A stretch of DNA of 41,610 nt from a virus (IMGVR_UViG_2537561977_000020), one strand, 5' to 3'. Counted from the stretch's first letter, positions 11,226 through 36,718 are shown. Numbers and translations: made by a program. Notes: a model not told the origin generated them from the sequence alone.

Positions 11226-11773
11226 TTAAATTAGTGCTTCAGCATCAGCACTTTCGCTGATATCGTCGAAATCGTCAGCGCTTGCCACTCCGCCGCCAGC
11301 GAATGCATCGCCGTCTCGCAGGAACTGGACTCCGCCGAGTGAGGCATTAATGCGTTTACCGAAATTATTGTCCTGTGCCCAGATATCGATAACGGCGTTT
11401 ACATAGCACCCTGCATAGGGACGTCCATCAGCCTGAATTAGTGGCGAACGATCGCGATCAAGAACAGCTGGGCGCGCTTTGTTAGCAGCGTTCAGGAAGA
11501 AATTGCCGGGAAAGCCTTCATACTCTGCTTTTTCATCACCATCATGCAGGCACAGATTGAGTTTTTCTCCAGCTGGTTATAAATGGACTCCAACTTCTCC
11601 CCCCATTTTTCCTTCGCTACCTGCTTCATAGCTTTACGGATTTCTTCCAGTTGTGGGTGTTTGGGAGACATTAAAAATACTGCGGAGAAACGCGGATCGC
11701 CTTCGCCGTTTACAGTTTTAGCTTCAAACAGAGCAGGAAAAGCTAATCTCACGTTATTTAATTTAATCTTCAT
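11226..11773 (-). CDS. DUF2815-type phage single-strand DNA-binding protein, frame-broken
   Basis: N-terminus MKIKLNNVRLAFPALFEAK; continues in -1 frame after T5 run 11562-11566 as LCLHDGDEKAEYEGFPGNFF...ending 11226; track shows only 11492..11773. Confidence 0.6.
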
Positions 11774-12285
11774 TTCAAAACTCCTATAAATTCTATGGAT
11801 TCTTTTTCCGCTGCTTTACGCGCAATTACAGCTTCCGCTACGGAATTAAATAGACCTAAATGTTTTTCTTTGCCGTGCAGCTTTATATAAGCTCTCCACT
11901 TATTACGGTGACGGCAAACCCCAACGGCACCGCTTTTATTATCAGAGCGTAAGGATTGGTTAATGTTATTTTCGGTAGAGGTTACAAGTCGTAGATTAGA
12001 AAGGGTGTAATTGCTCCGATTTTTGTCTATGTGATCTACCTCTAATCCCGAGGGGATACTACCGTTATGCATAACCCAGACGATGCGATGTAACAACATT
12101 TTCCGACCGTTTACACTTACGTGATAATACCCGTCCGGCCTTATATGTCCCGCTTGCTTATCTGCATATTTAGCATTCCAGGACAAATAGTCTCGCCGGG
12201 TTTTAAAATGGGTGAGCGGACGATATTTCCATATTAAAACGCCATTGTGATACCGGAAGCATTCATTTAAATATTCTTGATCCAA
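11770..12285 (-). CDS. HNH homing endonuclease (HNH + AP2-like DNA-binding domain)
   Basis: EVDHIDKNRSNYTLSNLRLVTSTEN and SGAVGVCRHRNKWRAYIKLHGKEKHLGLF. Confidence 0.65.
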   Translation of the reverse strand: MDQEYLNECFRYHNGVLIWKYRPLTHFKTRRDYLSWNAKYADKQAGHIRPDGYYHVSVNGRKMLLHRIVWVMHNGSIPSGLEVDHIDKNRSNYTLSNLRLVTSTENNINQSLRSDNKSGAVGVCRHRNKWRAYIKLHGKEKHLGLFNSVAEAVIARKAAEKESIEFIGVLK

Positions 12286-12299
12286 ATAACCTCCTTAAA

Positions 12300-13601
12300 T
12301 CAGATGAGGTCTGCGGTTAGCGTATCGTCGGATACGTCGTCGAAATCATTTACAGGGTTGATATTGAGTGCGGGGTGTGGGTCTGACTCGGGAACGACGG
12401 TGGGTTTACCATCAGCTCGTGTTATCAGTGCCTCGACTTTTGACCAACGGCGCGGACTGGCCTTTTTGATAAGTTTTTCGGCTTTTGTGGGACTAATAAG
12501 TTTAAAGTCGAATACTTCTTCAGTTTTGTACCTGAACTGGTCCTTCAGAAGTGCGCGAGCTGCCTCTTCATCACTCCAGGCCCGGTTACCTTGTTTTCCT
12601 GTTACCAGTTTAAACCCCGGTACCGGATGTCCGGCATTGAGTTCATTGTGAACCCGGTCCCGTACTGCCTTTAGCCAGGATTCAATAAAGTCGGCCTGAC
12701 TATAGATCTCCGCAAGCTGCTCAATGGTTAACAGAGGTACACGTGCGCTGGCATTGGTGATTATTTCGCTGACAGGCTTTGTCAGATCTTCAAAATCGCT
12801 GGCCGCTGTTTGTAAATGCTGCATTTTCTGGGCAGTGCAAATAGCTTTTGCTTTACAGAAGCGGCACTGTTTTTCTCCAGGTATGAAGTTTTCCAGCGGT
12901 AGTGTCTCAATGCCTTCGCATTCAGCAATATTGAGAACAAGGATCGCACTGGTTGCGGCCTCCAGCGCCCGTTCACCGAAAGACTGAAGTTCCTGTACGG
13001 TTAACGACCATTCTGAAACGTGGTTGAGCCTTGGCTGGTGAATAAATAATCTTACAGTTTCAAAGTCATACAGCATGCTGAATTGTTCAAGCGCACCCAG
13101 AGCATATAGTTGTAGTTGCTCATTTTGTTCTGCATCAATGCGGACGCCTTTGCCATATTTCAGGTCGTGGATTTGTAATTCGTTACCAGCGATGATTATG
13201 CCGTCGGCAGTTCCGAAAGATTCTTCCACCCCCGTTATATGTGAGAAATCAACACGTTGTTCAACCAATAGTTCATTATTCTGTGCAAGAGTCCAGACCG
13301 TATCAACATACCGGCCAACGGCTTCGACCATTTCATCATCCACCTGTGGGCCAGATGTATCATCAGGATTTTCGCGAAGGGGGTATGAGCCGAGAAACAT
13401 AGAAACATTGCATCCGGCGTAGTGTTCCGGGTGGCTTTGCCTGTTTCGTAGAACTTTTTCAGCAAGTGCGTGCGCTGCAGTGCCCTCGATTGCAAAAGTT
13501 GTTTCTTTATCCGGTTGTGTGGCCTCCAGCGCCAGACTACCCGCACACCTTAGCCAACGATGTGCAGATGATGGTGATAATCGTGCATGAACATCAGGCA
13601 T
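12300..13601 (-). CDS. DUF2800-type PD-(D/E)XK nuclease
   Basis: N-terminal [16 protein letters not shown] and C-terminal Cys cluster [10 protein letters not shown], recalled for DUF2800 proteins that accompany DUF2815 and PolA in phage replication modules. Confidence 0.6.
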
Positions 13602-14112
13602 TCATGACCTCCTGAATGTGTTTTCGCCGCGCAGCCGCTGCGAGTTGTTTGGTGGGGAAATGACCGAGAGATTTGAATTTGCCGTTTACTCGTCCGTAGG
13701 CCTGCCACGGTTTTTTCTTACCTTCGCTGAACCGAACGCCAACCACTCCAGATTTATTTTTTCTGGTGTGAGAGTTAGCCCTGTTTTGTGAAAGAGAGGC
13801 CCAGCGAAGATTTACCGCCCGGTTGTCATCTCGACGACCGTTAATGTGGTCAACTTCAGGGGCAGATCCGGGAATAAATGCTGCGGCAACGAGACGGTGT
13901 ATTTTGACGGTTACCTTTTTACCCGCTTTCCATAAGTCGGTGATTAGATATCCGTCTGTGTCATAGCGTGGTTTTAGTGACTTACCTTTAATGGGATAGG
14001 TGCAGCCAGAACCTTTGTTTAATACAGTTCTGTCGAGGCTTCTCAGGTTGCCAGCGTCTGAAATCTGGTAAATGCCTTCAAAGCCTGAAATATCCTTCCA
14101 GGCTTCCGGCAT
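13594..14112 (-). CDS. HNH homing endonuclease (NUMOD4 + HNH + AP2-like)
   Basis: [79 protein letters not shown]. Confidence 0.65.
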
Positions 14113-14114
14113 GA

Positions 14115-15017
14115 TTAACCCTCCAGTGCTTTTTCAGCCAGGGTGATTACTTCAGCGAGATTTTCATCCGTTACTTCACCAAGTTTCCTGGCTCCCTGTT
14201 TTTCCAGAATTGCAATAGCTTCTGCCCGGTAGCCCCCTTTTGCTAACTGGAGGATCAACCCTTCAGCTTGTTTGCGTAGTGCCGCGAAATCAATTGTATG
14301 GTCATCTTTGGCGTCATTATTCTGGCTGGAATTTGCTGCGTCTCTGCGTGCAAATTCTTCCTGCAGCTGAAGGTACTCAACACGGTTGATCTCGATATGG
14401 CCTTTTTTCAGCATCTCGTTCAACTTGCGTAAGGTGTGGAGTTCACTGGCTGCTGTGCCGGATACATTTTTGACGTAAAACGGCCCCGTGCGTTCTCCAT
14501 CTTTGTTACTGGCCTTTTTCGGTTTAACTTCATCACGCCCATCCGCAGGTGCATCAAGTAGCTGCTCGGCAAAAGCACGTCGCTCGCCGATGGTTGGCAG
14601 GTCGTCCCAGAACTTAAGGATGTTACGGGACAGGTCCAGGAGAGCAGGTTTAAGCAGCGCCCTGGCTCGTTTGACGCCCTGTAATGCGCTGTCGAGAGCA
14701 TCAATCTGAACTACTCGTTTATCGCCTTCAGCATCACGGTAGGCAACAGCACGTTGCAGCATGTCTTCTGTGATAGGGGTGGCTACCGGGTAGAAACCAG
14801 CCAGTGCGATAACGTCGCTGAACTCCAGATCATCCAGTGTCATTGCCGCTGACATGTTTTCAGCTTCAGTTGCTGTATCCCGACATTCCTGCACTCGTGA
14901 AATCGTGTCAGGATGCATAACAATACCTGATGCCATTGTGCGGATAAGACGTTCAAGCAGCGCATTATGTTGTGCCAGAAGTTGATTATTAAGTTCTAGA
15001 CTGGTTTCTAAACTCAT
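14115..15017 (-). CDS. hypothetical protein (300 aa)
   Basis: Long ORF tightly packed in operon; no family recognised. Confidence 0.4.
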   Translation of the reverse strand: MSLETSLELNNQLLAQHNALLERLIRTMASGIVMHPDTISRVQECRDTATEAENMSAAMTLDDLEFSDVIALAGFYPVATPITEDMLQRAVAYRDAEGDKRVVQIDALDSALQGVKRARALLKPALLDLSRNILKFWDDLPTIGERRAFAEQLLDAPADGRDEVKPKKASNKDGERTGPFYVKNVSGTAASELHTLRKLNEMLKKGHIEINRVEYLQLQEEFARRDAANSSQNNDAKDDHTIDFAALRKQAEGLILQLAKGGYRAEAIAILEKQGARKLGEVTDENLAEVITLAEKALEG

Positions 15018-15196
15018 ACTGTGGTCCTCGCTACAAGGAGAATGAAAGTGATGATCAGACCGAGCGCAGTGGCAACGGCCAGACCGGTCATCAAATCGAA
15101 GTTTTTACGGCGATAACGGAGAACATCGCGCCCCGTCAGTCGATGGAGGTATTCAGGTTTCATCGGTTGTATTCCTTTTTTCATATCGGGGAGCAC
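15014..15196 (-). CDS. small hypothetical membrane protein
   Basis: 60-aa ORF with hydrophobic C-terminal segment LAVATALGLIITFILLV; first ORF after PL-side terminator. Confidence 0.3.
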   Translation of the reverse strand: MLPDMKKGIQPMKPEYLHRLTGRDVLRYRRKNFDLMTGLAVATALGLIITFILLVARTTV

Positions 15197-15222
15197 GCTG
15201 TTGCGAGTGCGCTTTCAGACAT

Positions 15223-15248
15223 AAAAAAGCCCGTCACTTGCGGCGGGC
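15223..15248 (-). terminator. intrinsic terminator (tL-like) upstream of early-left genes
   Basis: Minus-strand hairpin GCCCG-CCGCAAGUGA-CGGGC then U6. Confidence 0.5.
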
Positions 15249-15322
15249 AAAGACTACACACAGCAATTACATGGATATCATCGAGTGCCTGCTTTTAACC
15301 ACATCAGGCGAGGTGGTTCTCC

Positions 15323-15370
15323 TTGTACCCCTACAGTGAGAAATCGTCTAATATCTCTTCACCCCTACAG
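15323..15370 (+). promoter_or_regulatory. putative promoter with direct-repeat sites upstream of ORF 15388
   Basis: TTGTAC (15323-28), 18 bp, TCTAAT (15347-52); exact 10-mer ACCCCTACAG at 15327-15336 and 15361-15370; inverted repeat around RBS. Confidence 0.35.
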
Positions 15371-15387
15371 TTTGAGAGAGATTAGAT

Positions 15388-15957
15388 ATGTCTGAAGAAA
15401 AAGGAATTCTTTCCCGGATAACTGAATCGTTATCCGGCGTGGGAGGAGCAATTAAAGGCGCGGTTGGAGCAGCAAGAGAGATTCAGAATCTGACTGTCGA
15501 CTATGCAGTTAAAGAGAAGACGCACACCTTACTCGATAAGTTAATGGATGTTCAGATGCAGCAAATGTCGCTTCAGGAGCTGCTGATTGCGGCTAAGGAG
15601 AAAATTGTTGAACTGGAAAATGAGAAAGTAAAGCAAGAGAACTGGGCCGCTGAAGCGGCGAGCTATGAACTTTACCAGCCTATGCGGGGTACTCTGGTCT
15701 ATCGCAGCAAGCTTTCTGCAGATGCTGACCAATCTCCGGTTTATATTTGTCCCAATTGCTACGAGCAAAAGAGAAAATCTATATTGCAAGCGGAAGGTCT
15801 GGTTACTAAGCCAGGCCTTGAGCGAGCCGTTAATATGGTTTGTTCGCACTGTAGGGCTTCCTATCTGTTCAACCGAAATGCTTTAGAGGCCCGACTGCCT
15901 TCTGAAGATGAAAATCCGGGGAAGGCAATCACGGATTACGATCCTTACAACCAGTAA
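15388..15957 (+). CDS. hypothetical protein with Gly-rich N-terminus, coiled coil and C-terminal zinc ribbon
   Basis: 189 aa; CPNC...CSHC Cys pairs; ATG 15388 with GAGAGAG upstream; convergent with PL transcription. Confidence 0.5.
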   Translation: MSEEKGILSRITESLSGVGGAIKGAVGAAREIQNLTVDYAVKEKTHTLLDKLMDVQMQQMSLQELLIAAKEKIVELENEKVKQENWAAEAASYELYQPMRGTLVYRSKLSADADQSPVYICPNCYEQKRKSILQAEGLVTKPGLERAVNMVCSHCRASYLFNRNALEARLPSEDENPGKAITDYDPYNQ

Positions 15958-16171
15958 TTTCTTTAAGCATGGGTACCCTTCCGGCCACCCAGAGTTAAAG
16001 GAACTAAGCGCCCCATCGTCGGGGCGTTTCAACTTGCGTGACTTATCAGTTCGTCGCGGTGTTGTCCTCTACGCTTACCGTACGCATACGGACTCGGCGC
16101 TTACCTCGATCCCATCGGGTGCCATTTCATTTTGCCAGGAGTACTGCGGCTTACCTGTCACGCGGTTCAGT

Positions 16172-16184
16172 TTGTTAAAGAGCG
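16172..16184 (-). promoter_or_regulatory. boxA-like antitermination element downstream of PL-like promoter
   Basis: Minus strand CGCUCUUUAACAA, matching rrn/lambdoid boxA consensus GCTCTTTAACAA. Confidence 0.5.
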
Positions 16185-16201
16185 ATTACTTATTGCGATT
16201 A

Positions 16202-16236
16202 AAAATACAAGCAAACCTGTGAATGCGTCAACAGGT
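16202..16236 (-). promoter_or_regulatory. PL-like early-left promoter with operator-like sites
   Basis: Minus strand TTGACG (16231-16226), 18 bp, TATTTT (16207-16202); operator-like TACAAGCAAACCTGTG (16206-16221) and ACCTGT/ACAGGT inverted repeat flanking -35. Confidence 0.45.
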
Positions 16237-16292
16237 ATTTTGGTAATAAAATGCATTATTAACCTAATTACTTGTTTTTACGGGTAATAAAA

Positions 16293-16312
16293 AAGAGGGC
16301 CTAAGCCCTCTT
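16293..16312. terminator. bidirectional intrinsic terminator downstream of cI
   Basis: AAGAGGGC-CTAA-GCCCTCTT hairpin flanked by A6 on one side and TTTGTTT on the other. Confidence 0.6.
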
Positions 16313-16333
16313 TGTTTAGTAGTCAGGATGCGA

Positions 16334-16963
16334 TTATCTTTTTCTGCGGAATATGCGATGTTCTACCATTGTCCCTATGATCTTAATTGGTTTTTCCCAG
16401 GAGCGACAAATAGGGTAATCACTATTCAATGGAACAAGTTCAAAGTCTTCCTCACCTTTAGCGCCAATCCCTACCGGGCGGTATTTTTTGAACGTTGCTT
16501 CGTGGCTACCGTTACATGCCGCAACGAATTCACCAGGAGTAGGGTATACGTCAGTGTCAATTATAACGATGTCCCCCTCTTTAAATTCAGGTTCCATTGA
16601 ATCCCCACGTATACGTAGCGCAAATGAACTTTCTGATAGCTCAGCCGTGGTGAGAATGTATTCGAAATCACCTTCTTCACGAAGTAGCTCAGCGCTTGTG
16701 AAAGCCCCGGCTTGTACGTAGCTTAGAACAGGCACCCTTCGAGCTCCGTAGTTGAAATCTGTAACAACATCGCCCCCAAGAAGTAGCCATTTAGGATCGC
16801 ATTCAAGAGCTGACGCTAAAGCAAGAAGATTGCGTGGTTTAAGTGTTTTCCCATTCTCTATAGCTTCAATCGACTGCTGGCTAATGCCCGCTCGTTTCGC
16901 AACTTCGACCTGAGTTAAGTTTAGTTCTGTTCTGCGTTTTTTAGCTCGGTTGGCAAGATTCAT
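16334..16963 (-). CDS. cI: CI-type repressor (HTH + S24 LexA-like peptidase domain)
   Basis: HTH LNLTQVEVAKRAGISQQSIEAIENG; S24 motif RIRGDSMEP; start MNLANRAKK at 16963 with AAGGAG RBS. Confidence 0.8.
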   Translation of the reverse strand: MNLANRAKKRRTELNLTQVEVAKRAGISQQSIEAIENGKTLKPRNLLALASALECDPKWLLLGGDVVTDFNYGARRVPVLSYVQAGAFTSAELLREEGDFEYILTTAELSESSFALRIRGDSMEPEFKEGDIVIIDTDVYPTPGEFVAACNGSHEATFKKYRPVGIGAKGEEDFELVPLNSDYPICRSWEKPIKIIGTMVEHRIFRRKR

Positions 16964-16990
16964 GTTGACTCCTTTTCTGTCATTGATGAT

Positions 16991-17051
16991 TACAGATACT
17001 TCTGTATTTGACAAACAAGGTTGCCTGTGAGGTAATTACAAGTAAACCTGT
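16991..17051. promoter_or_regulatory. OR-like operator/promoter region between cI and cro
   Basis: Palindrome TACAGAtactTCTGTA (16991-17006), TACAAGTAAACCTGTA (17036-17051), TTGACA (17008-17013) with 17-bp spacer to GGTAAT. Confidence 0.5.
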
Positions 17052-17070
17052 AATAATGAGGGCTTACTCA

Positions 17071-17295
17071 ATGACCAGTTCTACCCTTGCTTCACGTATA
17101 AAGGAGCGCCGCAAAGCCTTAGGTATAACCCAAACTTCATTGGCTGAAAGTGTTGGCATGCGCCAGCAGTCTGTTCAATACCTTGAGTCCGGACGCGCCA
17201 CCCGTACCGGTTTCATCCTTGAATTGGCAAAAGTTCTGAAATGCGATCCTGACTGGCTATTAAACGGCGAAAATTCAGAGCAGCAAAAGGTGTAA
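17071..17295 (+). CDS. cro: Cro-like HTH (XRE family) regulator
   Basis: HTH LGITQTSLAESVGMRQQSVQYLESG; divergent from cI; start ATG 17071 chosen downstream of predicted promoter (track ORF from 17008). Confidence 0.6.
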   Translation: MTSSTLASRIKERRKALGITQTSLAESVGMRQQSVQYLESGRATRTGFILELAKVLKCDPDWLLNGENSEQQKV

Positions 17296-17298
17296 CCC

Positions 17299-19445
17299 AT
17301 GTCTGATAACAAACCATGGGGAGCTACGCCCGATGAGTGGTTCCACTTCGATCTGGTGTTGGGGATGACAGACAGGCTTTTACCTGTGGTGTCCAATCCC
17401 TGTGCAGAACTGTCGCCTAATAGCAAGCTTTCTCATAATTTTGGCAAAACTCCCTGTCGCTACAATGGCCAACGTAAGGTTGTTGGTATCCCCGACTGGG
17501 CTAACTATGTTGTTACGGAAAACGATTTTGCCCGGTGGTCGAACGAACCCGATTACGGTATTTGCGTTCGTACTGGCGACGGGGTGGTGGCTCTGGACTG
17601 CGATATCAATGACGCCGGGATGCAGGAGATCGTACGCAATATTATCCTGTCATGCCTGGGGGAACTTCCGCCACGTCGCTGGCGGGCTGACAGTCATAAA
17701 TGCCTGTACCTGATTGCTGTTGATGGCGACTACCGTAAACGTGGTCACCGCCTGGAAGGCGAAAATAAACAAATAGAGCTGCTCGCTAAGGGCCAGCAGT
17801 TTGTGGCTTGTGGTACCCATCCGGCAGGCGAACGTATTCAGTGGGACTGCGGTTTGCCCGGCGAACCTCTGAAAATTACATCTGAACAGCTCGAAAGCCT
17901 GTGGCAGCGCCTGGCGGATAACTTACCCGTGAAAGACAGCTATACCGCAGGTGCGGGACGTCAGCGTGACCTTTCCTGTGTCGATCCTTCCGCGACAGAT
18001 GATGTCGCCGACTGGCTTGACGCGAACGGGTGGACTCTGTCGGTCAGCTCTGATGGTTCCCGCAATCTGAAACCGTTTCGGGATGAGTCAGAATACAGCA
18101 ACGGTTGCAGCGAAACATCCATTAAGTATTTCCCAAAAGGGACGGGGGGATTTGAACAGGGACATTTTAAAAGCATGCACAACACCGATGCGGGGCTTAC
18201 TGATGCCGACTGGCTGGAAGGCTACGGCTATACGCAATCTCTGTTCGAAGATCTCACGGTGGCTGAAGATGGCGATAAGCCTGAATTTACCGATATTAAT
18301 ACAGATATGACAGCCCATTTTCTGGAACGCTTTATCTACGTCATCGAGGGTGACCAGGTATGTGATCTTAGCCGACCGCCATATCAGTGCATGATGGATA
18401 TGAAGTCGTTCAAAAACCTGATGGCGCCTTACCAGTTCCCGCCAGAAGGGAAAGGGCAACCAGTCCCCGCAACCAAACGGTGGATAGAGCACCGGCATAA
18501 GAAGATTGCTGAGACGACAGGCTATAAGCCCGGTGCGGGACGTATTATCGAGCGTTTCGACGGGCGGTTTGAAATAAACGAATTTTATATGCCTGAGCAT
18601 CCACGTACAGCGGATACAAGTAAGGTGTCCACGTTCCTTAATCATATGGCGTATCTGGTACCTGATGCCTGGCAGCGCGAGTTTTTCATCGCCCGTCTGG
18701 GATGGATGGTTCAGCGTCCGGAGCGTCGATGCCCGATTTCTATTCTGCATGTGGCTACCGCACATGGTACGGGCAGAGGATGGGTCAGCCAGTTAATGGA
18801 GCGCGTGCTCGGCCCGTGGAACTGTGCTCGTACTCGCATGAAGATCCTGTGCGATAACCAGTTCCATGACTATCTGTACAATACGCTTCTATGCACCATT
18901 GACGAGGTGCGCGAAAACGATAAGCGGTATGAGGTGAACGATAAGATCCGTGACGTGCTGACAGAACCACGGTTTGAAGTGAACCGCAAATATGGCAGCA
19001 AAAAACGATGGATATATACACCGGCTTTCTGTTCTACACCAACCACTTTGATGCGCTGGCGCTGCCAGAGGAAGACCGACGTATAGCTGTGCTGGGGGGC
19101 CCTGACTTCGCCGCAACTGAAGAGCATTACGCCAGCCTGTACGGTGCGCTAAGCGACAGCGACTTTATCGCCCAGGTGTACTGGTATCTGATGGGCGTTG
19201 ACCTGTCTCGCTTTAACTGGCAGCGCGCCCCCGAGACGAAAGAACGCCTTCTGATGATTGAAAGCAATAAGAGCGATGTGGAGGCTGCTCTTACTGAAAT
19301 CCTGGATAATCCGCCTGTACCAGCAATGACTTATCAACAAATTGTTAACGCAATACTGGCAGAAGCAGGAATGGATGTAGAAATTAACCAGAAGCACATA
19401 ACAAAGCTATTGCGAGAAAAACAAAAAGGCAGCCAACAGATTTAG
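17299..19445 (+). CDS. prim-pol type DNA primase with D5-like C-terminal region, frame-broken
   Basis: Prim-pol motifs VVALDCDIND and ELLAKGQQFVACGTHP; track ORFs 17299..19086 and 19008..19445 joined by -1 shift at A6 run 19000-19005. Confidence 0.55.
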
Positions 19446-19564
19446 TAAAAATTGACGGAATGGGTTATCGCTTCTGGATACTTGCAAAAAATTGCGACTT
19501 CAATAATGAGGAATTGCGCGAAATATATAAAACTTGCGAAATTTTGCAATCTGGATTGTAAAAA

Positions 19565-19825
19565 GGTAACAGTAAGGTAACAGTAAAACGACTAACTGTT
19601 ACCTTGAAAATATCAATAAATTCACATGGATAACTAAAAAGGTAACAGGTAACAGTAGTATTTAGTTTATATACGCGAGACTTTATATTATACGTACTAT
19701 ACCTGCGCATACGTATATAGAACTAAAAGTAACTGTTACCTGTTACCCAAAACGGGGTTAAGCCTTATGTGGCGCTCCCTACAGGAGGTAACAGTTAGCT
19801 ATTTATCTGTTACCTTACTGTTACT
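19565..19825. repeat. iteron array flanking AT-rich core (putative replication origin or regulator-binding array)
   Basis: GGTAACAG at 19565, 19576, 19641, 19648, 19787; inverted CTGTTACC at 19596, 19733, 19740, 19807 (+ partial 19819); AT-rich core 19660-19725 with ATACGTAT palindrome. Confidence 0.55.
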
Positions 19826-26304: not shown

Positions 26305-27034
26305 GGCCTGGTACCGCAGACAACTGGATAATGCCGTCAGTGGGATGCACAACAGTGTACTTTACTGGCTGCGGGCTGAGTACCGTAAAACAGACCTCGC
26401 GCAGGATGCGTCCCCCGTTAACCTGATGCGTGGTGCCATGCAGCAACTTGCCAGGCGCTGGCAGAAAAATTTTGACGAAATGGCCCTGCGGCTGGCGAGG
26501 CGGTTTGCCGGTGATGTCCTGAAAAACAGCGATGCGTCACTGTACACTGCGCTCCGTGATGCCGGGTTTACGGTTCCTTTCCGTATGACAACGGAGATGA
26601 ATACCGCACTTCAGGCCAGCATCACGGAGAATGTGAACCTCATTCGCTCCATCCCGCAGCAACATCTCACCCAGGTGGAAACACTGGTCATGCAGTCTGT
26701 TGGCCGGGGACGTGACCTGAAAACGCTGACCGATGAACTGGAAAAACGTTACGGCATCACACGACGGCGCGCGGCGCTGATTGCCCGCGACCAGAACAAT
26801 AAGACAACGTCGGTAATGCAGGCCGCCAGACAGCGTTCGGTGGGTATCACTGAAGGTGTCTGGCGGCATTCCCGCGCGGGTAAAACATGGCGTCCGTCGC
26901 ATGTGAAGGCGAACGGTAAACGGTTTGACCTGCGAAAGGGGATGTTTCTGGATGGTAAGTGGGTACTGCCGGGCGAAGAAATCAACTGCCGGTGTGGCTG
27001 GGAGGCCGTTATTCCCGGACTGGAGAAAAAATGA
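26264..27034 (+). CDS. head morphogenesis protein (Mu F / SPP1 gp7-like)
   Basis: C-terminal [24 protein letters not shown]...CRCGW motif; start uncertain (track 26213). Confidence 0.55.
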
Positions 27035-28379
27035 TTATTACCGAAATGCTGGCGTTTGACCGGGCATCGGTAAGGCAGTTCGATAAAGTCGGTCGCCTCC
27101 AGATTGAGCGCAGTAATCTCAGCAAGGCGAACGTCTGCGGTTATTTCGGGTATGAAATACCGGGGGCGGAAGCGCTGGGACTCGACCCCAAAAAACTTTA
27201 TCAGCTTTACCGTGACCCCGATGAACTGCGCAAGGCAGTTTCAACCTTCAACAATATTCCCGTCCTGTGCCGACACAAACCCGATTATCCGGGCGCGCCC
27301 GCGCGCGAGTACCGGGTGGGGACGACTCATGCCAACAGCGAGTTTGACGGTACCTATCTGGTTAACGGCATGTCCATCTGGGACAACTCCGCCATCGCGG
27401 GGATAGAAACGGATGAACAACGGGAAATCTCATCGTCATATGCCTATGTGGCAGATATGACGCCGGGAACCACCCCCGACGGTGAGCCGTATGACGGCGT
27501 TATGCGGAATATCGTGGGAAATCATGTGGCCCTGGTCGGCGATGGCCGGGTAGGGTCGGACTGTCTTGTTATGGACTCTCTCCCTCAGGAGCTAAAACGC
27601 ATGAAACTGAGTAAAAAGAAGTGGCGGTGCTTACCGCGCTGGGAACCTATCTTGCGCCGCGTCTGGCGCAGGATGCGGCTCCCGGGGATTTGTTACGCCT
27701 GATGGCGCAGTATAAGCGTCCGGCAGCTATCGCCAGCGCGGTAAAAACTGCTTACAGCGAACGGCTGGCACAGGATATGGATATTGAACCGGCGGAGCTG
27801 GCGCAACTGATGGAATCAGCAGAAGCCGTACCGGAGCTGGTCGGGGATGATGATACCGGGTTAACTGACGAGTCGAAGGCATTTGATACCGACAGCCCGA
27901 TGGAAAGTGTACTGGCGTTGCTGTCCGGCAAAGTTCCTGATGATGTGCTGGAAAAAATTAAATCCGCACTGTCTCCGACAACCGACGAAGCCCCCGAAAC
28001 AAAAGAGGCTGATGTGAAACCCGACGATGTGAAAGTCGATAAACCTGCGATGGATGCAGCAATCAGGCTGGCAACTGACCAGGCAACGAAACGGGCTGCT
28101 GAAAATTTCCGCGCCGTCCGTGTGGCTGAAGCTGAAGTGCGACCGCTGATTGGCGATGTGGTGGCGATGGACTGCGCCGAAGATGTTTACCGTACCGCGC
28201 TGGAACAGACGGGGATCGATATTCAGGGTATTCACCCCGGTGCGTACCGCAGCATGGTGAAGTTTGCCGTTGAGCAGAAGCAGACGGCCAAATCCTCTCC
28301 CCGTGTGGCGATGGATCAGGCCAGCGCATCGACGTTTGCGGCAGATTTCCCCGGTGCAAAACTGAAACGAGGTTACTGA
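27031..28379 (+). CDS. head protease/scaffold-like protein (Mu gpI/DUF2213-like), possibly frame-broken
   Basis: N-part [11 protein letters not shown]...[12 protein letters not shown]; acidic scaffold-like C-part begins at GTG 27621 in -1 frame; A5 run 27613-27617 at junction. Confidence 0.45.
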
Positions 28380-28380: not shown

Positions 28381-28863
28381 ATGAATACTTTTCAGACACA
28401 CATGAACCAGTACCCGGCACCGGGTATTCCGGGGGCGTTTGCCAGTGCTAACCCTCATGCCTCGTATGTGGCGGGAGATGGCGGGCTGATTACCGGCCCT
28501 GACGGGCTGGTAATTGCCCGGTTTGCCTGGGTAACCAAAGGTGTTGCCGCTAATAAGGGGGCCGGCGCACCGGCGGGTTTTGTTCCTCGTGACGGGCAGG
28601 CTTCCATTGTGGAATGGCTGGCCGGGGACTCGAACACCATTTATCCGGGGCGTGAATGCACCCTGATGGTGTCGGGGGATTTCTGGGCGCTGACCACCAC
28701 TACTGCGACGATCGGGCAGAAAGTATTTGCCTCACTGGCCACCGGGGAGATAGCCACGGGGGCGGCTGGCACCTCGATGGCGGGGTTTGTCGAAACCTGG
28801 TTTTCCGTTGCCAGCGCTGCGGCGGCAAAAGAAGTCATTAAGATCAGTACCTGGAGCAAATAA
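28381..28863 (+). CDS. head-associated structural protein (hypothetical)
   Basis: 160-aa Gly/Ala-rich ORF between scaffold and capsid genes. Confidence 0.35.
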
Positions 28864-29893
28864 TGAATAAATTTAAACAGCATTATGCGACGGCAAGTCG
28901 CGACTACGGGATTATTCTTCCCGGAGCACAGGCTTATTTGCCGAAGGAGTACGCCGCCGATTACGGACTGGCGATGGACGCGCAGCCTGCGCTGGTCACA
29001 GCGGCTAACAGCGGTATCCCTGCGTATTTCACCAATTACGTTGAGCCAGAACTGATCCGCGTGCTGGTGACGCCGATGAAAGCCGCTCAGATTCTGGGCG
29101 AAACCAAAAAAGGTGACTGGACGACACTGTCGGCACAATTCCCGATTGCAGAATCTGACGGGGAGGTGAGTTCCTACGGGGATTACAGCAACAACGGGGT
29201 GGTAAGCGCAAATGTCAACTGGGTACCGCGCCAGAGCTATCACTTCCAGACCTTCACCGTATGGGGCGAACGTGAGCTGGAGATGTACGGCGCAGCCCGT
29301 ATTGGCTGGGCGGCAGAGCTGAACGTGGCGTCAGCACTGACGCTGAATAAGTTCCAGAATAAGTCCTATTTCTACGGTATTGCCGGACTGACGAACTACG
29401 GTTTGCTGAATGATCCGTCGTTATCTGCACCAATCACCCCGGATACCGTTGACGGTAAACTGAAGTGGGACGACAAGGACGGACAGGGCGTGTATGACGA
29501 TATCGTGAAACTCTTTAAGCAACTGGTGAAACAGACTAACGGTCATATTGAGCGTACCGACAAAATGAAACTGTGCATGTCGCCGCTGGCAGAGGTGAAC
29601 CTCACCAAAACAAACCAGTACAGGGTTAACGTGTCCGATCTGCTGGCGAAAAATTTCCCGGCGATGACCATTGAAACGGCGGTGGAATACACCTCTGACG
29701 CTGGCGAGCTGGTACAGCTTATCGCGGAGCGTCTGGGTGAACAGGATACAGGCTATTGCGCTTTCACTGAAAAAATGCGCGCCCATGCGGTAGTGGCAGA
29801 TACGTCTTCCTGGAAACAAGAAAAAATCCGCTGGTACCGTGGGGGGCGATTATTCGCCAGCCGCCGGCGTATGCACAAATGCTGGGGGTGTGA
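28863..29893 (+). CDS. major capsid protein (Mu gpT-like), frame-broken near C-terminus
   Basis: Track ORF ends in basic junk after A6 run 29821-29826; -1 frame gives ...[17 protein letters not shown] ending 4 nt before next ATG. Confidence 0.55.
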
Positions 29894-29896
29894 GTT

Positions 29897-30243
29897 ATGG
29901 CTGAAATGGTAACAGTGGGCTGCAAACTGCCGAACGGTCTGGTGCTGGAAGTGGGTCAGAAACGGGTTCAGGTGGCAGGCTGGCGGAATAACGCGGTTAA
30001 AATTGTGGGGGGCTATGGTCTGACGCAGGTCGATAAGGTGTTTTTGACGCCTGGCTGGCGGAGCACGGACAGCAACCTTATGTGAAAAATGGCGTTATTT
30101 TTGCGCAGGATAAGGCGAACAGTGCAGTCTCGCAGGCTACGGAGCAGAAAGCCGTTAAATCCGGCCTTGAACCGCTGCCGCAGAAAAATCCGGCTCCGGG
30201 CGTTAACCGCAATGATGAAGTGATGGGTAAACCTCAGGAGTAA
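29897..30243 (+). CDS. hypothetical head/neck protein, frame-broken
   Basis: Track ORF 29897..30085 continues in -1 frame after T5 run 30041-30045 to TAA 30241-30243. Confidence 0.4.
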
Positions 30244-30248: not shown

Positions 30249-30707
30249 ATGGGTACGGTGACGTTTGACTGTCGGATGTTTGTCAGTCTGTACCCGGAGT
30301 TTTCCATGGTGACACCGGAGCTACTGACGGCGGTGTTTAACCAGGCGACCGCGTTGTACCTGGATAACACGGACGACAGTCCGGTTACCGACCTGAAGGA
30401 GCGGGAACAGCTTCTGTTCCTGCTGGTTGCGCATCTGTGCGCATTGCGGGGGCTGGGAAACGGGAGAGACGGGCAGGCTGGTCTGGTGGGGCGTATCACC
30501 AGTGCGTCGGAAGGTTCTGTATCGGTATCGGTGGATAATAGCGGCAGTAATGATGCGTCGTGGTGGTATCTCCAGACCCCCTGGGGTGCTGACTACTGGC
30601 AGGCGACAGCGCCATACCGCTCAATGCAGTATCATTCCGGGGGGGCACCTTCGCGATATCCGGGGCATTATTACCGGGGATACGGGAGGGGCGTCGATGG
30701 TAAATAA
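30249..30707 (+). CDS. DUF4054-like phage protein
   Basis: 152-aa ORF in head-tail joining region; contains a G7 run (30639-30645) so C-terminus is uncertain. Confidence 0.35.
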
Positions 30708-31280
30708 AGTCACAGGTGGCAAACAGTTCCGGCAGAAGCTGAAACAGGTTGCCGCGAACCTTTCATTGGGTAAAAACTCAAAGTGGGTTTTCTTGAGGGA
30801 GCAACTTACCCTGACGGTACGTCAGTGGCTTATATTGCCGCAGTTCAGGAGTTTGGTGGAAGAGCGGTCATACCTGCCCGTGAGCAGACGCTCCACTTTC
30901 GCTATAACGAAAAAACGGGAGAAACCGGGCACCGCTTTGTCAAAGCCGGTAAAGGGAATTTTGTTCAGGATGTGGTTATTCCTGAGCACACGGTCACCAT
31001 TCCCCCCCGTCCGTTCTTCCGTAAGATGATCGAACATAAAAGTCCCGAATGGGGCGAAAAAATGGCGACCTTATTACGGGCGAATGATTTTGATACTGCG
31101 ACCGCTCTGGTGTGTATGGGAGAACATATCAAAGGGCAGTTGCAGATGTCTGTTCGCGACTGGGAAAGTCCGCCCAACGCTGCATCCACTGCCCGGCAAA
31201 AGGGTTTTAACAACCCGCTTATTGAAACCGGACATATGATGGACAGCGTTGATTATTCTGTAGACGGGGGCAAAAAATGA
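30697..31280 (+). CDS. HK97 gp10-like head-tail joining protein, frame-broken
   Basis: ATG 30697 after GGGAGGGG; N-part [22 protein letters not shown], -1 shift at A5 run 30772-30776, then track ORF 30783..31280 ([12 protein letters not shown]...AAVQEFGG). Confidence 0.5.
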
Positions 31281-31643
31281 ACTTTCACGGTATTGTTTCC
31301 GGCGCAGTACGTCGGGTAAATCCCTTTACAGACGCGCTGGTTTATCGTTCCCGCGGGAGTACACAGCAGGCAGATTATTCCCGCGTACCTGAGTATGAAG
31401 ATCCGGTTTCCGTCAGGGTGCAAAAGCAGGCTGTCACCCAGGCTGATTTACGTCATCTTGATAATCTTAACCAGCAGGGAGTTTTTCGCCACATTGTATA
31501 CCGATGGTAACTGGTGCGGGCTTAACCGTGCCCGGCGACAGGGAGGCGATAAATTTGTTATTGGCGATGAAACGTGGCTGGTGATTGAGGTACCGGAAAT
31601 CTGGCCTGACTGGACGAGGGTTATTGTATGCCTTCAGGTGTGA
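31277..31643 (+). CDS. hypothetical tail-associated protein, frame-broken
   Basis: Track ORFs 31277..31510 and 31395..31643 differ by +1; junction at T5 run 31482-31486. Confidence 0.35.
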
Positions 31644-32154
31644 CCCTCTCCGTTACGGAAAGCGCTCTTTATCAGGCCCTCGGTGATTATCTCCGGGGGC
31701 TTTTTTCTGATGCCGGGATTGAACGAACGCAGCAGAACCAGGTCCCGATGCCTCAGGGGAATTTCATCACCATGACGGGCATTGATGTTACCGGATTATC
31801 CACTGCGGTAGTGGCATATTCTGCGCCAGCGCAGGCTGGTGAGGGCTCTCAGCATATCACCCGTACCACAAAATGGCGTTGCCAGCTTGATTTCTACGGC
31901 CCTCACGCGGCAGATAACGCGCAGGTGCTGGCTAACGCTTTTCCGGTCTGAATTTTCCGTACGGCTTTTCCGGCAGGGCGGTGGGCTGATTTCCCCGCTG
32001 TATTGCTCAGAGCCCTTTAACACCACATTCCCCAACGGTCAGCAACAGTATGAACCGCGCTGGACGCTTGATATTCAGATGCAGATTAACCCTGTGGTCA
32101 CAACTTCCCTGATGTTTTTTGACAACGTGATCACCCGGACAACGGAGGCTGATA

Positions 32155-32174
<20 letters not shown>
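31628..32174 (+). CDS. hypothetical tail-associated protein, frame-broken
   Basis: Track ORFs 31628..31951 and 31839..32174 differ by +1; junction near T4 run 31939-31942. Confidence 0.35.
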
Positions 32175-33639
<1,465 letters not shown>

Positions 33640-34086
33640 ATGTCGGGTAACAACAACACCATCACTGCGGCGGATGCCATTATCACGCTGACAGTGAATA
33701 ATCTGTATCCCTCCGGCGTACGACTTCAGGGATTTGCAACAGATAACGTTTATGGCACCGATCCACTGGTACTGGCGGAAACTGCCCGCGGTATTGACGG
33801 TAAACTGTCCGCGGGATTTGTGTACAGCAACATTATCCAGACGTTTCATATCATGCCGGATTCCCCCAGCCGGGATATTTTTGATACCTGGTCAACCACA
33901 TCCCGGGCCAGTCGGGCTGTATTCCGTTGTAACGCTGTCGTCCTGCTTCCGGCGATTGGCCGTAAATATACCTGCGTGAATGGCGTACTCAAACAATGGA
34001 AAGCGCTGCCTGATGCAGCTCGTACGTTGCAGCCAGGGCAGGCGGTTATTGAGTGGGAAACCATTACTCCGGAGGTTTTTAACTGA
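33640..34086 (+). CDS. tail tube protein
   Basis: 148-aa ORF directly after sheath and before chaperone/tape-measure genes. Confidence 0.5.
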   Translation: MSGNNNTITAADAIITLTVNNLYPSGVRLQGFATDNVYGTDPLVLAETARGIDGKLSAGFVYSNIIQTFHIMPDSPSRDIFDTWSTTSRASRAVFRCNAVVLLPAIGRKYTCVNGVLKQWKALPDAARTLQPGQAVIEWETITPEVFN

Positions 34087-34490
34087 TGGCCCGTAAAGAG
34101 AAATTTATCACTATTGAAGGTCAGGGACGGGATAAGGGCAAGGTATTTCATCTTACCGAAATGTCTGCCTCACAGGCGGAATGGTGGGCGATGCGTGCCA
34201 TTATGGCAATGGGGCGTGGTGGCGTGGAGTTACCGGATGATGTTCGTAGTCTGGGGATGGCTGCGCTTGCCCTTGAAGGGCTGAAAGCATTATCGAAAAT
34301 TCCGCCTGATGAGGCGCGTCCGTTGATGGATGAAATGATGGACTGTGTGCAGTTTGTTCCCGATCCGAAAAAACGCAGCATCCGGAGACCGCTTGTTGAA
34401 GAGGATATTGAAGAAATCATTACCCGTCTTAATCTGCGTGCGGAGGTCTTTAAGCTGCATGTGGATTTTTTCGCTACCGTCGTCAGCTAG
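34086..34490 (+). CDS. tail assembly chaperone (G-like)
   Basis: 134-aa acidic protein between tube and tape measure; slippery heptamer near 3' end. Confidence 0.5.
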   Translation: MARKEKFITIEGQGRDKGKVFHLTEMSASQAEWWAMRAIMAMGRGGVELPDDVRSLGMAALALEGLKALSKIPPDEARPLMDEMMDCVQFVPDPKKRSIRRPLVEEDIEEIITRLNLRAEVFKLHVDFFATVVS

Positions 34491-34714
34491 ATATCCCCCC
34501 GCGTTATCTCGACCCCGACAGACCGTTCGGGGTGGTGGATTACGTTAATGTTCCCCGTACCATTGCGACCGTTATCTCCTCCGGTAAGGCTTCAAAAGCT
34601 GAACTGGATTCTGTCCTTGGTGTGCAGGACTTATGGGATCTGCTGGAAATAATTCATGTGGATGCCCATAACGAACAGGTGATACAGGAGAACAGAAATG
34701 GCGCAGGTACTTGA
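34086..34714 (+). CDS. tail assembly chaperone frameshift product (GT-like, -1 frame)
   Basis: Heptamer T TTT TTC at 34466-34472; -1 frame open to TGA 34712-34714. Confidence 0.45.
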
Positions 34715-36718
34715 TGAGCTTGTTCTGTCCCTCGGGATTGATGACAGGGACTTTACTGCCGGGGAACAGGCAGTACATGCTGCCCTTAACCGGCTCACGA
34801 CGGTGATGGAAGGTGTCGCTGACACATTCAGTCAGGGACAGAAGAAAACCAGTGAATCACTGGAAAAAACCGGAAAAGATGCTGATAAAACGGCCCGTCG
34901 AATGGAAGATGCCGGGAAACGGGCGTCCCGTTTTTTTTCAGGGATCCGTAGCGAGATTCTGGCTCTTGCGGGTGTCAGTCTGACGCTGGGGGGGCTGAAG
35001 AACCTGGTAACAGGTTTTGCCCGTGATCTGAACCGTCTGTCCGTGGAATCTGATGCTTTTGGCATGAAGGCCAGAAATCTGGACGGATGGTTACGGGCTG
35101 CGCGGGCAAATAATGTTGATGAAGGGGAAATGTCTGGGGCATTTTCCCGGCTTGCAAATGCAAAAGCGGCCTTCAGAGCCGGAAGGTCCTTTGATCCTGT
35201 GTTACAGGATTTGTTTCAGGTTGCAGCCAGGGCGGGCATTAGTGTTGATTTAAATACTGACAGCACTGAAGCCATCATGCGCAAGCTGGCGGTTATTTTT
35301 CCGCGACTGACAAAGTCCGAACAAACTGCCTACGGCAACGCGCTGGGCTTCAGTTATGCCGGACAGCAGTTTCTTGGCTCCGGTCATGCGCTGAAAGATG
35401 TGGACGAATTTACTTCCCGTTCGCAGGTTACGCCGGGGCGTATAGCGCTGGCCCGTAAGCTACGAAAAGAGCTTGTTGAGCTCGATCAGACCTGGTCCGG
35501 CATCGGGATGACGATTAGCACCGCGTTGATGCCGTACGCGCTGAAGCTCAGCCACTGGCTGGAGACACTCGGTGACTGGATGCAGCAACATCCGGAGGAA
35601 GTGAACAGGTTTATCACCACATTTCTGAATGACGTTGAGTCAGTGGCCTCCCTGGCGAATAAGGCTGCCGGAGAACTGGGGGGCTGGCAGAATGTCATTA
35701 TTACGCTGATCGGGCTGAAAGTGGCGTCATGGGTGCGGGGGTTGACAAAAGCCCTCAGTGGCCCCGGAGGCCTTCTTTTTGCGATAACGGCGCTTTACCC
35801 GGTTGTTGACGGATTACTGACATCCATTGTTGGCAGGGAAAATAAGGACTGGCTGGATTCACATGGTTTTTTCTGGGCTTCAGACGGGACTTTCTTTTTC
35901 AATAAGAAAGAGATGGAGACGTATCAGACAAAACTGGATGCCGGAGAAAAGCCTGGCAACATCACCCGGGCACAATCACCCACAGTATGGCAGCAGGGCA
36001 TGCTGGATACTCAGGCTTCTCAGGCAACCGGGAGGGAAGCAGCCTTCGGTGAATCCTGGCTACAGGGTATGCGTGCGACGCAGGAAAAACTCGGTAATGC
36101 CATGCAAAACCGCCAGCGACCGACGAAGACCGGGGAAGCCCTGTTAGGCTGGCTGCAACCGAAACTGTCTCAACTGGAGGAAAAATATAACCTGCCGCCC
36201 GGACTGCTGCGCAGCGTTGCGATCACCGAATCCCGTGGTAATCAGTTTGCCGTCTCACCTGCTGGTGCGATGGGACTGTTTCAGTTCATGCCGAAGACGG
36301 CCAGTGAATTTGGTCTGAGGGGGAACGATGCCTTTGATCCCGAAAAAGCCGCTGATGCCGCCGCGAGAAAACTTGGTGGCCTGATACGTTTTTTCATGGC
36401 GATCTGGCTAAGGCTCTGGCGGCATATAACTGGGGAGAGGGAAATGTTCAGCGTAAGGGACTGGCTGCTGCTCCGGAGGAGACCCGCAACTATATTCCGC
36501 GGGTGCTGGCGAACCTGCCTTATCCGGGTGCGGCAATGGCCATACGGTCGCGCCATCCTGCGCCTGTATCGCAGTCCACCGTAACGGAAACCACGCATAT
36601 CGGGACACTGAATGTCACCACAACGTCGGACAATGTGAAGGGTATTACCGATGACGCACGTCGGCGTATCACGAATTCGGCGCTTGTGTCGGTTTATTCC
36701 AGCGGGGTAACAGGATGA
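34698..36718 (+). CDS. tail tape measure protein with C-terminal lytic transglycosylase (SLT) domain, frame-broken
   Basis: SLT motifs ITESRGNQFAVSPAGAMGLFQFMP and (after -1 shift at T6 run 36389-36394) ALAAYNWGEGNV; track ORFs 34698..36584 and 36503..36718. Confidence 0.6.

What the first reader, a model, noticed from the sequence alone, without database searches (positions are those of the whole stretch)
11226..36718. Many phage genes interrupted by single-base frame changes at A/T homopolymers
Apparent frame breaks coincide with homopolymers in at least twelve genes: SSB (T5 11562-66), PolA (T5 8912-16), primase (A6 19000-05), scaffold (A5 27613-17), capsid (A6 29821-26), ORF 29897 (T5 30041-45), gp10-like (A5 30772-76), ORF 31277 (T5 31482-86), ORF 31628 (T4 31939-42), sheath (two sites), tape measure (T6 36389-94). 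In each case the adjacent frame continues with family-typical sequence, for example capsid ...[17 protein letters not shown] and SLT ...ALAAYNWGEGNV. Most need one added base but some need one removed, which fits homopolymer-length consensus error better than prophage decay or recoding. The per-ORF track therefore fragments real genes.
Basis: seen in the sequence. Interest (0 to 1): 0.5.

Follow-up and report, generated by a model that had tools for sequence, protein, structure and literature searches.

The report
Homopolymer sequencing errors fragment prophage genes
The many broken phage genes in this E. coli LT-68 prophage are almost certainly single-base sequencing errors at runs of A or T in an old draft assembly, not biology, so the prophage is probably intact and the finding is ordinary.

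Summary
The window is the end of contig ADUP01000034.1 of E. coli LT-68, a prophage beside yfhL. Compared with more than 20 near-identical copies from other genomes, it carries 15 private single-base indels. Fourteen break 11 genes: PolA, SSB-like, primase, scaffold, capsid, three small head/neck genes, tail terminator, sheath and tape measure/SLT. One is intergenic.

- Ten indels are missing bases. Nine of them are A/T 6-to-5 or 7-to-6; the tenth is A4 to A3.
- Five are extra bases. Two match the textbook 454 "carry-forward" pattern next to an A6 and a G6 run.
- Reversing the 15 changes restores every gene to the length seen in relatives.
- LT-68 has only 6 private substitutions against these 15 indels.
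- One Illumina-era draft matches 21.4 kb (host flank plus left arm) with 0 mismatches and only two T6/T5 gaps.
- Relatives of this prophage decay by IS insertion, not by frameshift.
- The only other sequence with the same run lengths is a Logan assembly of SRR040460, most likely LT-68's own reads.

Two of its sites are mislocated by a few bases. Raw reads could not be inspected. One or two sites could still be genuine slippage.

The parts
7133..10059 (-). Family-A DNA polymerase gene, split into ORFs 8902-10059 and 7133-8908 by a missing T in the T5 run 8912-8916 (relatives have T6)
   Evidence: Searches show the gap against L002, L004, L005, L012, L020-L023, L046, L048 and L049. Repair gives 975 aa, as called in CP065611.1 and UFYN01.
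11226..11773 (-). SSB-like gene (DUF2815 / Enc34 ssDNA-binding), broken by a missing T in the T5 run 11562-11566 (relatives have T6)
   Evidence: Searches show the gap against every relative. Repair gives 182 aa. Every other contig aa.
17299..19561 (+). Primase / DUF5906 gene, broken by two missing A's: A6 at 19000-19005 (true A7) and A5 at 19417-19421 (true A6)
   Evidence: Repair gives 754 aa, as in L037-L044, L046 and L048-L050.
19636..19640 (.). Intergenic A5 run that is A6 in all relatives. The same kind of length change occurs outside a gene.
27031..28379 (+). Scaffold-like DUF2213 (Pa193_gp24) gene, broken by a missing A in the A5 run 27613-27617 (true A6)
   Evidence: Repair restores one ORF. 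Relatives aa.
28863..29893 (+). Major capsid gene. An extra A at 29818 (AA instead of A, one base before an A6 run) and an extra G at 29839 (one base before a G6 run) replace the last 26 or so residues.
   Evidence: One search shows the repaired C-terminus ...[17 protein letters not shown] against the window's ...[27 protein letters not shown].
29897..30243 (+). 115-aa head-completion gene, broken by a missing T in the T5 run 30041-30045 (true T6)
   Evidence: Repair gives 115 aa, as in the other nine loci (L027-L034, L036).
30697..31280 (+).
   Evidence: The 194-aa call is in relatives. The window's C7 at 31002 is correct; the C6 is peculiar to L001, where the gene is annotated as frameshifted.
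31277..31643 (+). 121-aa gene, broken by an extra T in the T5 run 31482-31486 (true T4)
   Evidence: Repair gives 121 aa.
31628..32174 (+). Tail/neck terminator gene (181 aa), broken by an extra T at 31933. The insertion is not in a run; the T4 run at 31939-42 is unchanged.
   Evidence: Repair gives 181 aa.
32155..33639 (+). Tail sheath gene (DUF3383 / E217_gp31). It has a missing A in the A3 run 32518-32520 (true A4) and an extra T in the T5 run 33065-33069 (true T4). The two changes cancel in length but put 547 nt out of frame.
   Evidence: Repair gives 494 aa.
34698..36718 (+). Tape measure / SLT lytic transglycosylase gene, broken by a missing T in the T6 run 36389-36394 (true T7)
   Evidence: Repair gives 673 aa. 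The downstream frame reads ...ALAAYNWGEGNV.

Best explanation
The frame breaks are base-calling and consensus errors in the deposited draft assembly of E. coli LT-68 (ADUP01000034.1). The profile fits flow-based sequencing, most probably 454 pyrosequencing. Long A/T runs were under-called by one base, a few short runs were over-called, and two carry-forward insertions sit one base ahead of 6-base runs. The underlying prophage is most likely intact, with all 11 genes full length.

Shown here: the indels exist, they are private to LT-68 data, they sit at or next to homopolymers far more often than chance allows, they outnumber private substitutions, and reversing them restores every gene.

Inferred: the platform, and the idea that local low read depth explains the cluster of errors at 29.8-33.1 kb.
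For: 1. Source. The truncated proteins are on record only for E. coli LT-68, in contig ADUP01000034.1 (314,322 bp), whose end is the window's end. The only other record is Logan contig SRR040460_142, which is 100% identical to window 11058-22997.

2. Privacy. At all 15 sites, every relative aligned there has the in-frame length. These relatives are CFSAN029787, FDAARGOS_943, RMDEC465, VL40, VL7S7, O121 201805972, CP065611.1 (two copies), NCTC UFYN01, several Illumina-era drafts and Logan assemblies of other runs.

3. Ratio. There are 15 private indels against 6 private substitutions over about 41 kb. Against CP065611.1 alone the count is about 13 substitutions and 15 indels. Against AATFNZ010000031.1 it is 0 substitutions and 2 indels in 21.4 kb.

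4. Spectrum. Nine of 61 A/T runs of 6 or more are shortened by one base. None of 13 G/C runs of 6 or more, and none of 110 A/T5 runs, is changed. The bias is P = 9e-12 to 1e-14.

5. Flow signature. In TACG flow space, +A at 29818 and +G at 29839 are miscalls of the same-nucleotide flow exactly one cycle from an A6 and a G6 flow. Chance gives P of about 4e-5. Huse et al. 2007 describe this error with the example GACTGGG becoming GACGTGGG, and note the A/T excess (PMC2323236). The CAFIE mechanism is also in PMC3116506.

6. No regard for coding. One indel is intergenic (19636).

7. Clustering. Eight of 15 indels, and 3 of the 6 private substitutions, fall in 29.8-33.1 kb (P of about 3e-4). That fits a patch of low read depth or quality.

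8. Decay mode in relatives. Related copies are inactivated by IS1, IS66, IS600, IS110 and IS4 insertions, not by frameshifts.
Against: - No read pile-ups, flowgrams or platform metadata could be inspected. The 454 attribution rests on the error spectrum and my recollection of that sequencing project.
- The Logan assembly of SRR040460 reproduces the run lengths, so most reads carry them. That is expected for systematic under-calling, but also for real mutations.
- The 7.9-kb host flank of LT-68 has no indel against its closest relative. However, it holds only one run of 6 or more, so about one error was expected (P(0) about 0.4, my estimate from the rates). The test is uninformative.
- Window 1-8900 also has no indel, despite 12 A/T runs of 6 or more.
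- The same T7-to-T6 frameshift occurs in the tape-measure gene of a Shigella boydii isolate (P0029, 3 aa different). Other alleles of the SSB-like gene in other Logan runs carry the same T6-to-T5 tail. So slippage, or recurrent miscalling, does happen at these tracts elsewhere.
Confidence: 0.9

Rival explanations
1. This is a genuinely degraded (cryptic) prophage. After integration, the LT-68 lineage accumulated real slippage mutations at homopolymers that inactivated replication, head and tail genes.
For: - Prophages of this family do decay in EIEC/Shigella-like backgrounds.
- A real-looking T7-to-T6 frameshift in the same tape-measure tract exists in a Shigella boydii isolate, held by both NCBI and Logan.
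- The host flank shows no indel.
- The reads of SRR040460 assemble to the same lengths.
Against: - Fifteen private indels against 6 private substitutions is roughly 20 times the indel:substitution ratio of about 1:10 reported for wild-type E. coli mutation accumulation (my recollection of Lee et al. 2012, not checked here).
- A sister assembly has 0 substitutions but 2 indels in 21.4 kb.
- No other contig of the lineage shares any of the 15 changes.
- Relatives decay by IS insertion, not by frameshift.
- Two insertions have the flow-chemistry carry-forward signature.
- The host flank test has no power, because the flank holds only one long run.
Confidence: 0.05
2. The cause is mixed. Most sites are sequencing errors, but one or a few, for example the T7-to-T6 in the tape measure gene or the T6-to-T5 in the SSB-like gene, are real slippage mutations.
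For: The same changes recur in other data sets at exactly these two tracts.
Against: - The closest relatives of LT-68 (CP065611.1, UFYN01, AATFNZ01) have the full-length tracts.
- Recurrence in Logan-only assemblies may itself reflect error-prone platforms.
Confidence: 0.1
3. The breaks reflect programmed recoding (ribosomal frameshifting or transcriptional slippage) or phase-variable tracts that regulate the phage genes.
For: The breaks lie at A/T runs, which can be slippery. The window does hold one genuine-looking -1 frameshift site, T_TTT_TTC at 34466-34472 in the tail chaperone gene pair.
Against: - At all 15 sites the relatives encode one uninterrupted ORF, so no recoding is needed.
- The runs are 3-7 bases long, shorter than the tracts known for transcriptional slippage or phase variation.
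- Tract length does not vary among the other 20 or more copies.
- The required shifts are both +1 and -1, and one site is intergenic.
Confidence: 0.005

Closest known systems
454/Roche pyrosequencing homopolymer and CAFIE (carry-forward / incomplete-extension) errors (Huse et al. 2007, PMC2323236; Gilles et al. 2011, PMC3116506)
   Same: - The changes are single-base length miscalls of homopolymers, biased to A/T and to longer runs.
- There are single-base insertions of the same base as an upcoming homopolymer with one intervening base. Window 29839 (ACC-G-TGGGGGG) mirrors the published example GACTGGG to GACGTGGG.
- Substitutions are rare.
   Different: - These are errors in an assembly consensus, not in single reads, so they imply low depth or systematic under-calling.
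- One insertion (31933) does not fit the carry-forward definition.
- The platform of the LT-68 reads was not verified here.
Pseudogenised prophages of Shigella/EIEC
   Same: The prophage family and chromosomal site (beside yfhL, with ipaH downstream in relatives) are the same, and the genes are interrupted.
   Different: In the relatives examined, the interruptions are IS insertions and deletions, shared within lineages. Here they are private 1-bp changes at homopolymers, without matching substitutions.
Programmed -1 frameshift of phage tail assembly chaperones (lambda gpG/gpGT type; Xu, Hendrix and Duda 2004, from my own knowledge)
   Same: The window contains such a site, T_TTT_TTC at 34466-34472, between the tube gene and the tape measure gene. 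It is conserved in relatives.
   Different: The 15 breaks have no conserved two-ORF architecture.

Membership tests
Flow-sequencing (454-type) consensus error | The changes are single-base length differences located in homopolymers, and more frequent in longer runs. | tested here: met
   Twelve of 15 lie in runs of 4 or more. Nine of 61 A/T runs of 6 or more are shortened, against 0 of 110 A/T5 runs. P = 9e-12 to 1e-14.
Flow-sequencing (454-type) consensus error | There are carry-forward insertions: the same base as an upcoming homopolymer, with at most two intervening bases. | tested here: met
   29818 (+A, then G, then A6) and 29839 (+G, then T, then G6) each sit one flow cycle from the 6-mer flow. 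The definition is in PMC2323236. Chance gives P of about 4e-5. The third insertion outside a run (31933) does not fit.
Flow-sequencing (454-type) consensus error | The differences are private to the one assembly and absent from independent assemblies of the same or nearly the same sequence. | tested here: met
   All 15 are unique to LT-68 data. More than 20 other contigs carry the in-frame lengths.
Flow-sequencing (454-type) consensus error | Indels exceed substitutions among the private differences. | tested here: met
   15 indels against 6 substitutions. 2 against 0 in 21.4 kb compared with AATFNZ010000031.1.
Flow-sequencing (454-type) consensus error | The reads come from a flow-based platform, and pile-ups show mixed or low-confidence run lengths. 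| not testable with these tools
   Only the Logan assembly of SRR040460 is available (100% identical). There are no reads or metadata, and literature searches found no description of the sequencing.
Flow-sequencing (454-type) consensus error | The same error rate is seen in host genes of the same assembly. | tested here: inconclusive
   The 7,934-bp host flank of LT-68 (rseC to yfhL) is 100% identical to L021, with no gap. It holds only one run of 6 or more, so about one error was expected.
Degraded prophage (real pseudogenes) | The inactivating mutations are inherited, that is shared by related strains, and accompanied by proportionate neutral substitutions. | tested here: not met
   None of the 15 is shared, and substitutions are fewer than indels.
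Programmed frameshift / recoding | A two-ORF architecture and slippery site are conserved in homologues. | tested here: not met
   Homologues have single uninterrupted ORFs at all 14 genic sites. The feature is met only at the separate chaperone site 34466-34472.
Phase-variable (contingency) homopolymer tracts | Tracts are long (typically 8 or more) and their length varies among strains. | tested here: not met
   The tracts are 3-7 bases long and have the same length in all other copies.

The most novel reading that the evidence does not exclude
The 15 indels are real. The LT-68 prophage alone would have undergone a burst of homopolymer slippage, for example by replication with its own family-A polymerase and primase or during a transient mismatch-repair defect. 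That would have destroyed 11 genes while leaving almost no substitutions. It would amount to a prophage-specific, indel-dominated decay mode.
Probability: 0.04. Interest if true: 0.4.

Novelty: not a real feature. Interest (0 to 1): 0.05.

Why it matters
The practical point is that the per-ORF gene track for this window should not be trusted.

- Eleven real genes appear as fragments, among them a phage DNA polymerase, primase, capsid, sheath and tape measure.
- Some fragments are deposited as distinct 'hypothetical proteins' of LT-68 (EFZ587xx-EFZ588xx) and seed spurious protein clusters.
- Any downstream inference would be wrong for this window. That includes calling the prophage degraded, treating the fragments as novel small ORFs, or reading the breaks as recoding.

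The finding has no biological novelty.

Tried and rejected
1. Shared truncation in CP046676.1. The 127-aa sheath fragment is also on record for this complete genome, which looked like independent support for a real mutation. Alignment shows a very noisy assembly (92% identity, 228 gap openings in 11 kb). It lost a G from G3 rather than an A from A4, and this gives the same peptide by coincidence. Rejected as evidence.

2. Host-gene test.
- LT-68's own upstream flank was obtained through its unique 433-aa SNF2 gene call.
- acpS, pdxJ, recO, era, lepB, lepA and rseC have the lengths called in relatives. rnc is called shorter (204 aa against 226).
- The DNA has no mismatch or gap against L021.
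- The flank has only one run of 6 or more, so the test is inconclusive.

3. Look-ups of the integrase, the 464-aa SNF2 and the 249-aa Rha gene did not return the LT-68 contig.

5. Literature searches for the LT-68 sequencing method (ADUP00000000, LT-68, sibling strain names) found only one paper. It lists LT-68 as an ETEC strain carrying an ANR/orf60 homologue and says nothing on sequencing.

6. The T6 run at 21033 looked like a 16th site against RMDEC465. It is shared with CP065611.1, so it is real variation.

7. The C7 run at 31002 differs only from CFSAN029787, whose gene is annotated as frameshifted. The window is right there.


Full report
**What the window is**

Exact-sequence look-ups of the truncated proteins identify the window as the last 41.6 kb of contig ADUP01000034.1 (314,322 bp). 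The contig belongs to Escherichia coli LT-68, assembly GCA_000188815.2, and the window's end is the contig end. The window holds a myovirus-type prophage:
- It is integrated beside yfhL (1-261, minus strand), with its integrase at 476-1873.
- A replication module follows (SNF2, family-A polymerase, SSB-like, DUF2800 nuclease, primase).
- Then come lysis, terminase, portal, head, neck, sheath/tube, tape measure/SLT and baseplate genes (annotation of relatives; Pfam hits).

**Checking the observation**

I aligned the window, with gaps allowed, to near-identical prophages. They came from complete E. coli genomes and from contigs that encode exactly the same proteins. Fifteen single-base indels are private to the window.
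- Ten are missing bases: 8912, 11562, 19000, 19417, 19636, 27613, 30041, 30772, 32518 and 36389.
- Five are extra bases: 29818, 29839, 31482, 31933 and 33065.
- Fourteen fall in 11 genes and one (19636) is intergenic.
- Reversing the 15 changes yields single ORFs of 975 (PolA), 182 (SSB-like), 754 (primase), 449 (scaffold), 342 (capsid), 115, 194, 121, 181 (terminator), 494 (sheath) and 673 aa (tape measure/SLT).
- These are exactly the lengths called in the relatives.

Two sites are a few bases off:
- The capsid is hit by +A at 29818 and +G at 29839, next to an A6 and a G6 run that are themselves unchanged.
- ORF 31628 is hit by +T at 31933, not in the T4 run.

It also missed a second primase site (19417) and the intergenic site.

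**Is it more than chance?**

Twelve of the 15 changes lie in runs of 4 or more, which hold 7.3% of the bases (P = 9e-12). Nine lie in runs of 6 or more, which hold 1.1% (P = 1e-14). Nine of the 61 A/T runs of 6 or more are shortened. None of the 13 G/C runs of 6 or more, and none of the 110 A/T5 runs, is changed.

**Error or biology?**

Five lines of evidence favour error.

1. Privacy.
- The only other sequence carrying the same lengths is Logan contig SRR040460_142. It is 100% identical to the window over 11.9 kb and so very probably derives from LT-68's own reads.
- Every other copy has the in-frame lengths. These copies are CP065611.1 (two copies), NCTC UFYN01, CFSAN029787, FDAARGOS_943, five other complete or near-complete genomes, several Illumina-era drafts, and Logan assemblies of at least eight other runs.

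2. Ratio to substitutions.
- LT-68 has 6 private substitutions against 15 private indels.
- Against its nearest complete relative, CP065611.1, there are about 13 substitutions and 15 indels.
- Against AATFNZ010000031.1 there are no substitutions and two T6/T5 gaps in 21.4 kb (13,459 bp of prophage plus 7,934 bp of host flank).
- Natural divergence gives many more substitutions than indels, so this profile belongs to an indel-dominated technical process.

3. Flow signature.
- I translated the sequences into the 454 flow order (TACG). The extra A at 29818 and the extra G at 29839 are then miscalls of the same-nucleotide flow exactly one cycle away from an A6 and a G6 flow.
- Huse et al. 2007 define this carry-forward error and give the example GACTGGG to GACGTGGG. 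They also report an excess of A/T homopolymer errors.
- Gilles et al. 2011 describe the CAFIE mechanism for Titanium chemistry.
- The chance that 2 of 3 insertions outside runs lie within 4 nt of a same-base 6-run is about 4e-5.

4. Clustering.
- Eight of the 15 changes, and 3 of the 6 private substitutions, fall in 29.8-33.1 kb (P of about 3e-4).
- In that patch the errors also hit short runs (A4, T4) and non-run positions. A patch of low read depth would produce this.

5. How relatives decay. Related copies in EIEC-like genomes are interrupted by IS1, IS66, IS600, IS110 and IS4 elements, not by frameshifts.

**Caveats**

- I could not see reads or platform metadata. Attribution to 454 rests on the spectrum and on my recollection of that 2010-era project.
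- I retrieved LT-68's own 7.9-kb host flank through its unique 433-aa SNF2 gene call. It has no mismatch or gap against its closest relative, but it holds only one run of 6 or more, so about one error was expected. The test has no power.
- A Shigella boydii isolate carries the same T7-to-T6 change in its tape-measure gene.
- Other alleles of the SSB-like gene, from other Logan runs, carry the same T6-to-T5 tail.
- These two tracts are therefore hot spots, either for real slippage or for recurrent miscalling. One or two LT-68 sites could be genuine.
- An apparent shared truncation with CP046676.1 proved to be coincidence in a very noisy assembly.

**Rivals**

- Real prophage decay is disfavoured by the privacy, the ratio and the carry-forward signature (about 5%).
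- Recoding or phase variation is excluded in practice. Homologues have plain uninterrupted ORFs, the tracts are short and invariant elsewhere, both +1 and -1 corrections are needed, and one site is intergenic.
- The one place in the window that does look like programmed frameshifting is separate. It is T_TTT_TTC at 34466-34472, joining ORF 34086-34490 to a -1 ORF ending at 34714, between the tube gene and the tape measure gene. It is conserved in relatives.

**Verdict**

This is an assembly artefact of no biological novelty. Its practical consequence is that 11 genes of this window are mis-annotated as fragments.

Noticed in passing
window 34086-34714 (slippery site 34466-34472): This looks like a genuine programmed -1 frameshift of the tail assembly chaperone pair. 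The 134-aa ORF (34086-34490) contains T_TTT_TTC, and the -1 frame is open from about 34454 to 34714 (annotated in relatives as a separate 60-aa ORF). The site lies between the tube and tape-measure genes, and its T6 run is identical in all relatives.
   Followed up: partly
window 29800-29912; proteins P0001 and P0003: Salmonella homologues of the capsid (348 aa, 87 contigs, several serovars) naturally end in the -1-frame tail ...[23 protein letters not shown]. That is the frame LT-68 reaches through its two insertions. E. coli copies end ...[17 protein letters not shown]. Both frames are therefore open over the last 30 or so codons, and the two genera use different ones.
   Followed up: partly
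window 36389-36394 and 11562-11566; proteins P0029 and P0070-P0074: The same one-base shortenings recur elsewhere. The T7-to-T6 change is in a Shigella boydii tape-measure protein (628 aa, 3 substitutions from LT-68's). The T6-to-T5 change is in 93-aa SSB-like fragments of other alleles, from Logan-only assemblies. These are either natural slippage hot spots or recurrent platform errors.
   Followed up: partly
window 13594-14112 (minus strand): A NUMOD4/HNH endonuclease ORF (172 aa) is present in LT-68, CP065611.1 and a few others. It is absent from RMDEC465, VL7S7 and O121 201805972, whose alignments break at 13601-14108. It looks like a mobile homing-endonuclease insertion. A second HNH ORF lies at 11770-12285.
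   Followed up: no
loci L002, L006, L007, L028, L029 (relatives): Copies of this prophage in related genomes are interrupted by IS66, IS1, IS600, IS4 (IS421) and IS110 elements, in the sheath, tape measure, baseplate hub and lysis genes. They are followed by an ipaH effector gene. In the relatives examined, the interruptions are mostly IS insertions; two genes are annotated as frameshifted (see the L001/L002 item below).
   Followed up: partly
locus L008 (CP046676.1, GCA_009762515.1): This 'complete genome' copy of the prophage is only 92-96% identical, with hundreds of small indels in patches (228 gap openings in 11 kb). It looks like an unpolished long-read assembly, and few genes are called in it.
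   Followed up: partly
L001 about 11045 (window 31002); L002 about 8133 (window 13393): Two relatives carry their own annotated frameshifts. CFSAN029787 has C6 instead of C7 in the 194-aa gene. RMDEC465 has an 8-bp tandem duplication (AGAAACAT) in the DUF2800 gene. The window is intact at both places.
   Followed up: no
window 5622-5837 (minus strand): This 71-aa ORF is annotated in relatives as an ANR family transcriptional regulator. PMC4038620 lists LT-68 (there called ETEC) among the strains with an orf60/Aar homologue, so that homologue may be this prophage-borne gene.
   Followed up: no
window 41610 (contig end); window 11058: The contig ends just after the DUF2612 baseplate gene, where relatives continue with tail-fibre genes, which suggests a repeat-induced assembly break. 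Four Logan contigs from different runs all start at window 11058, which suggests a repeated k-mer there.
   Followed up: no
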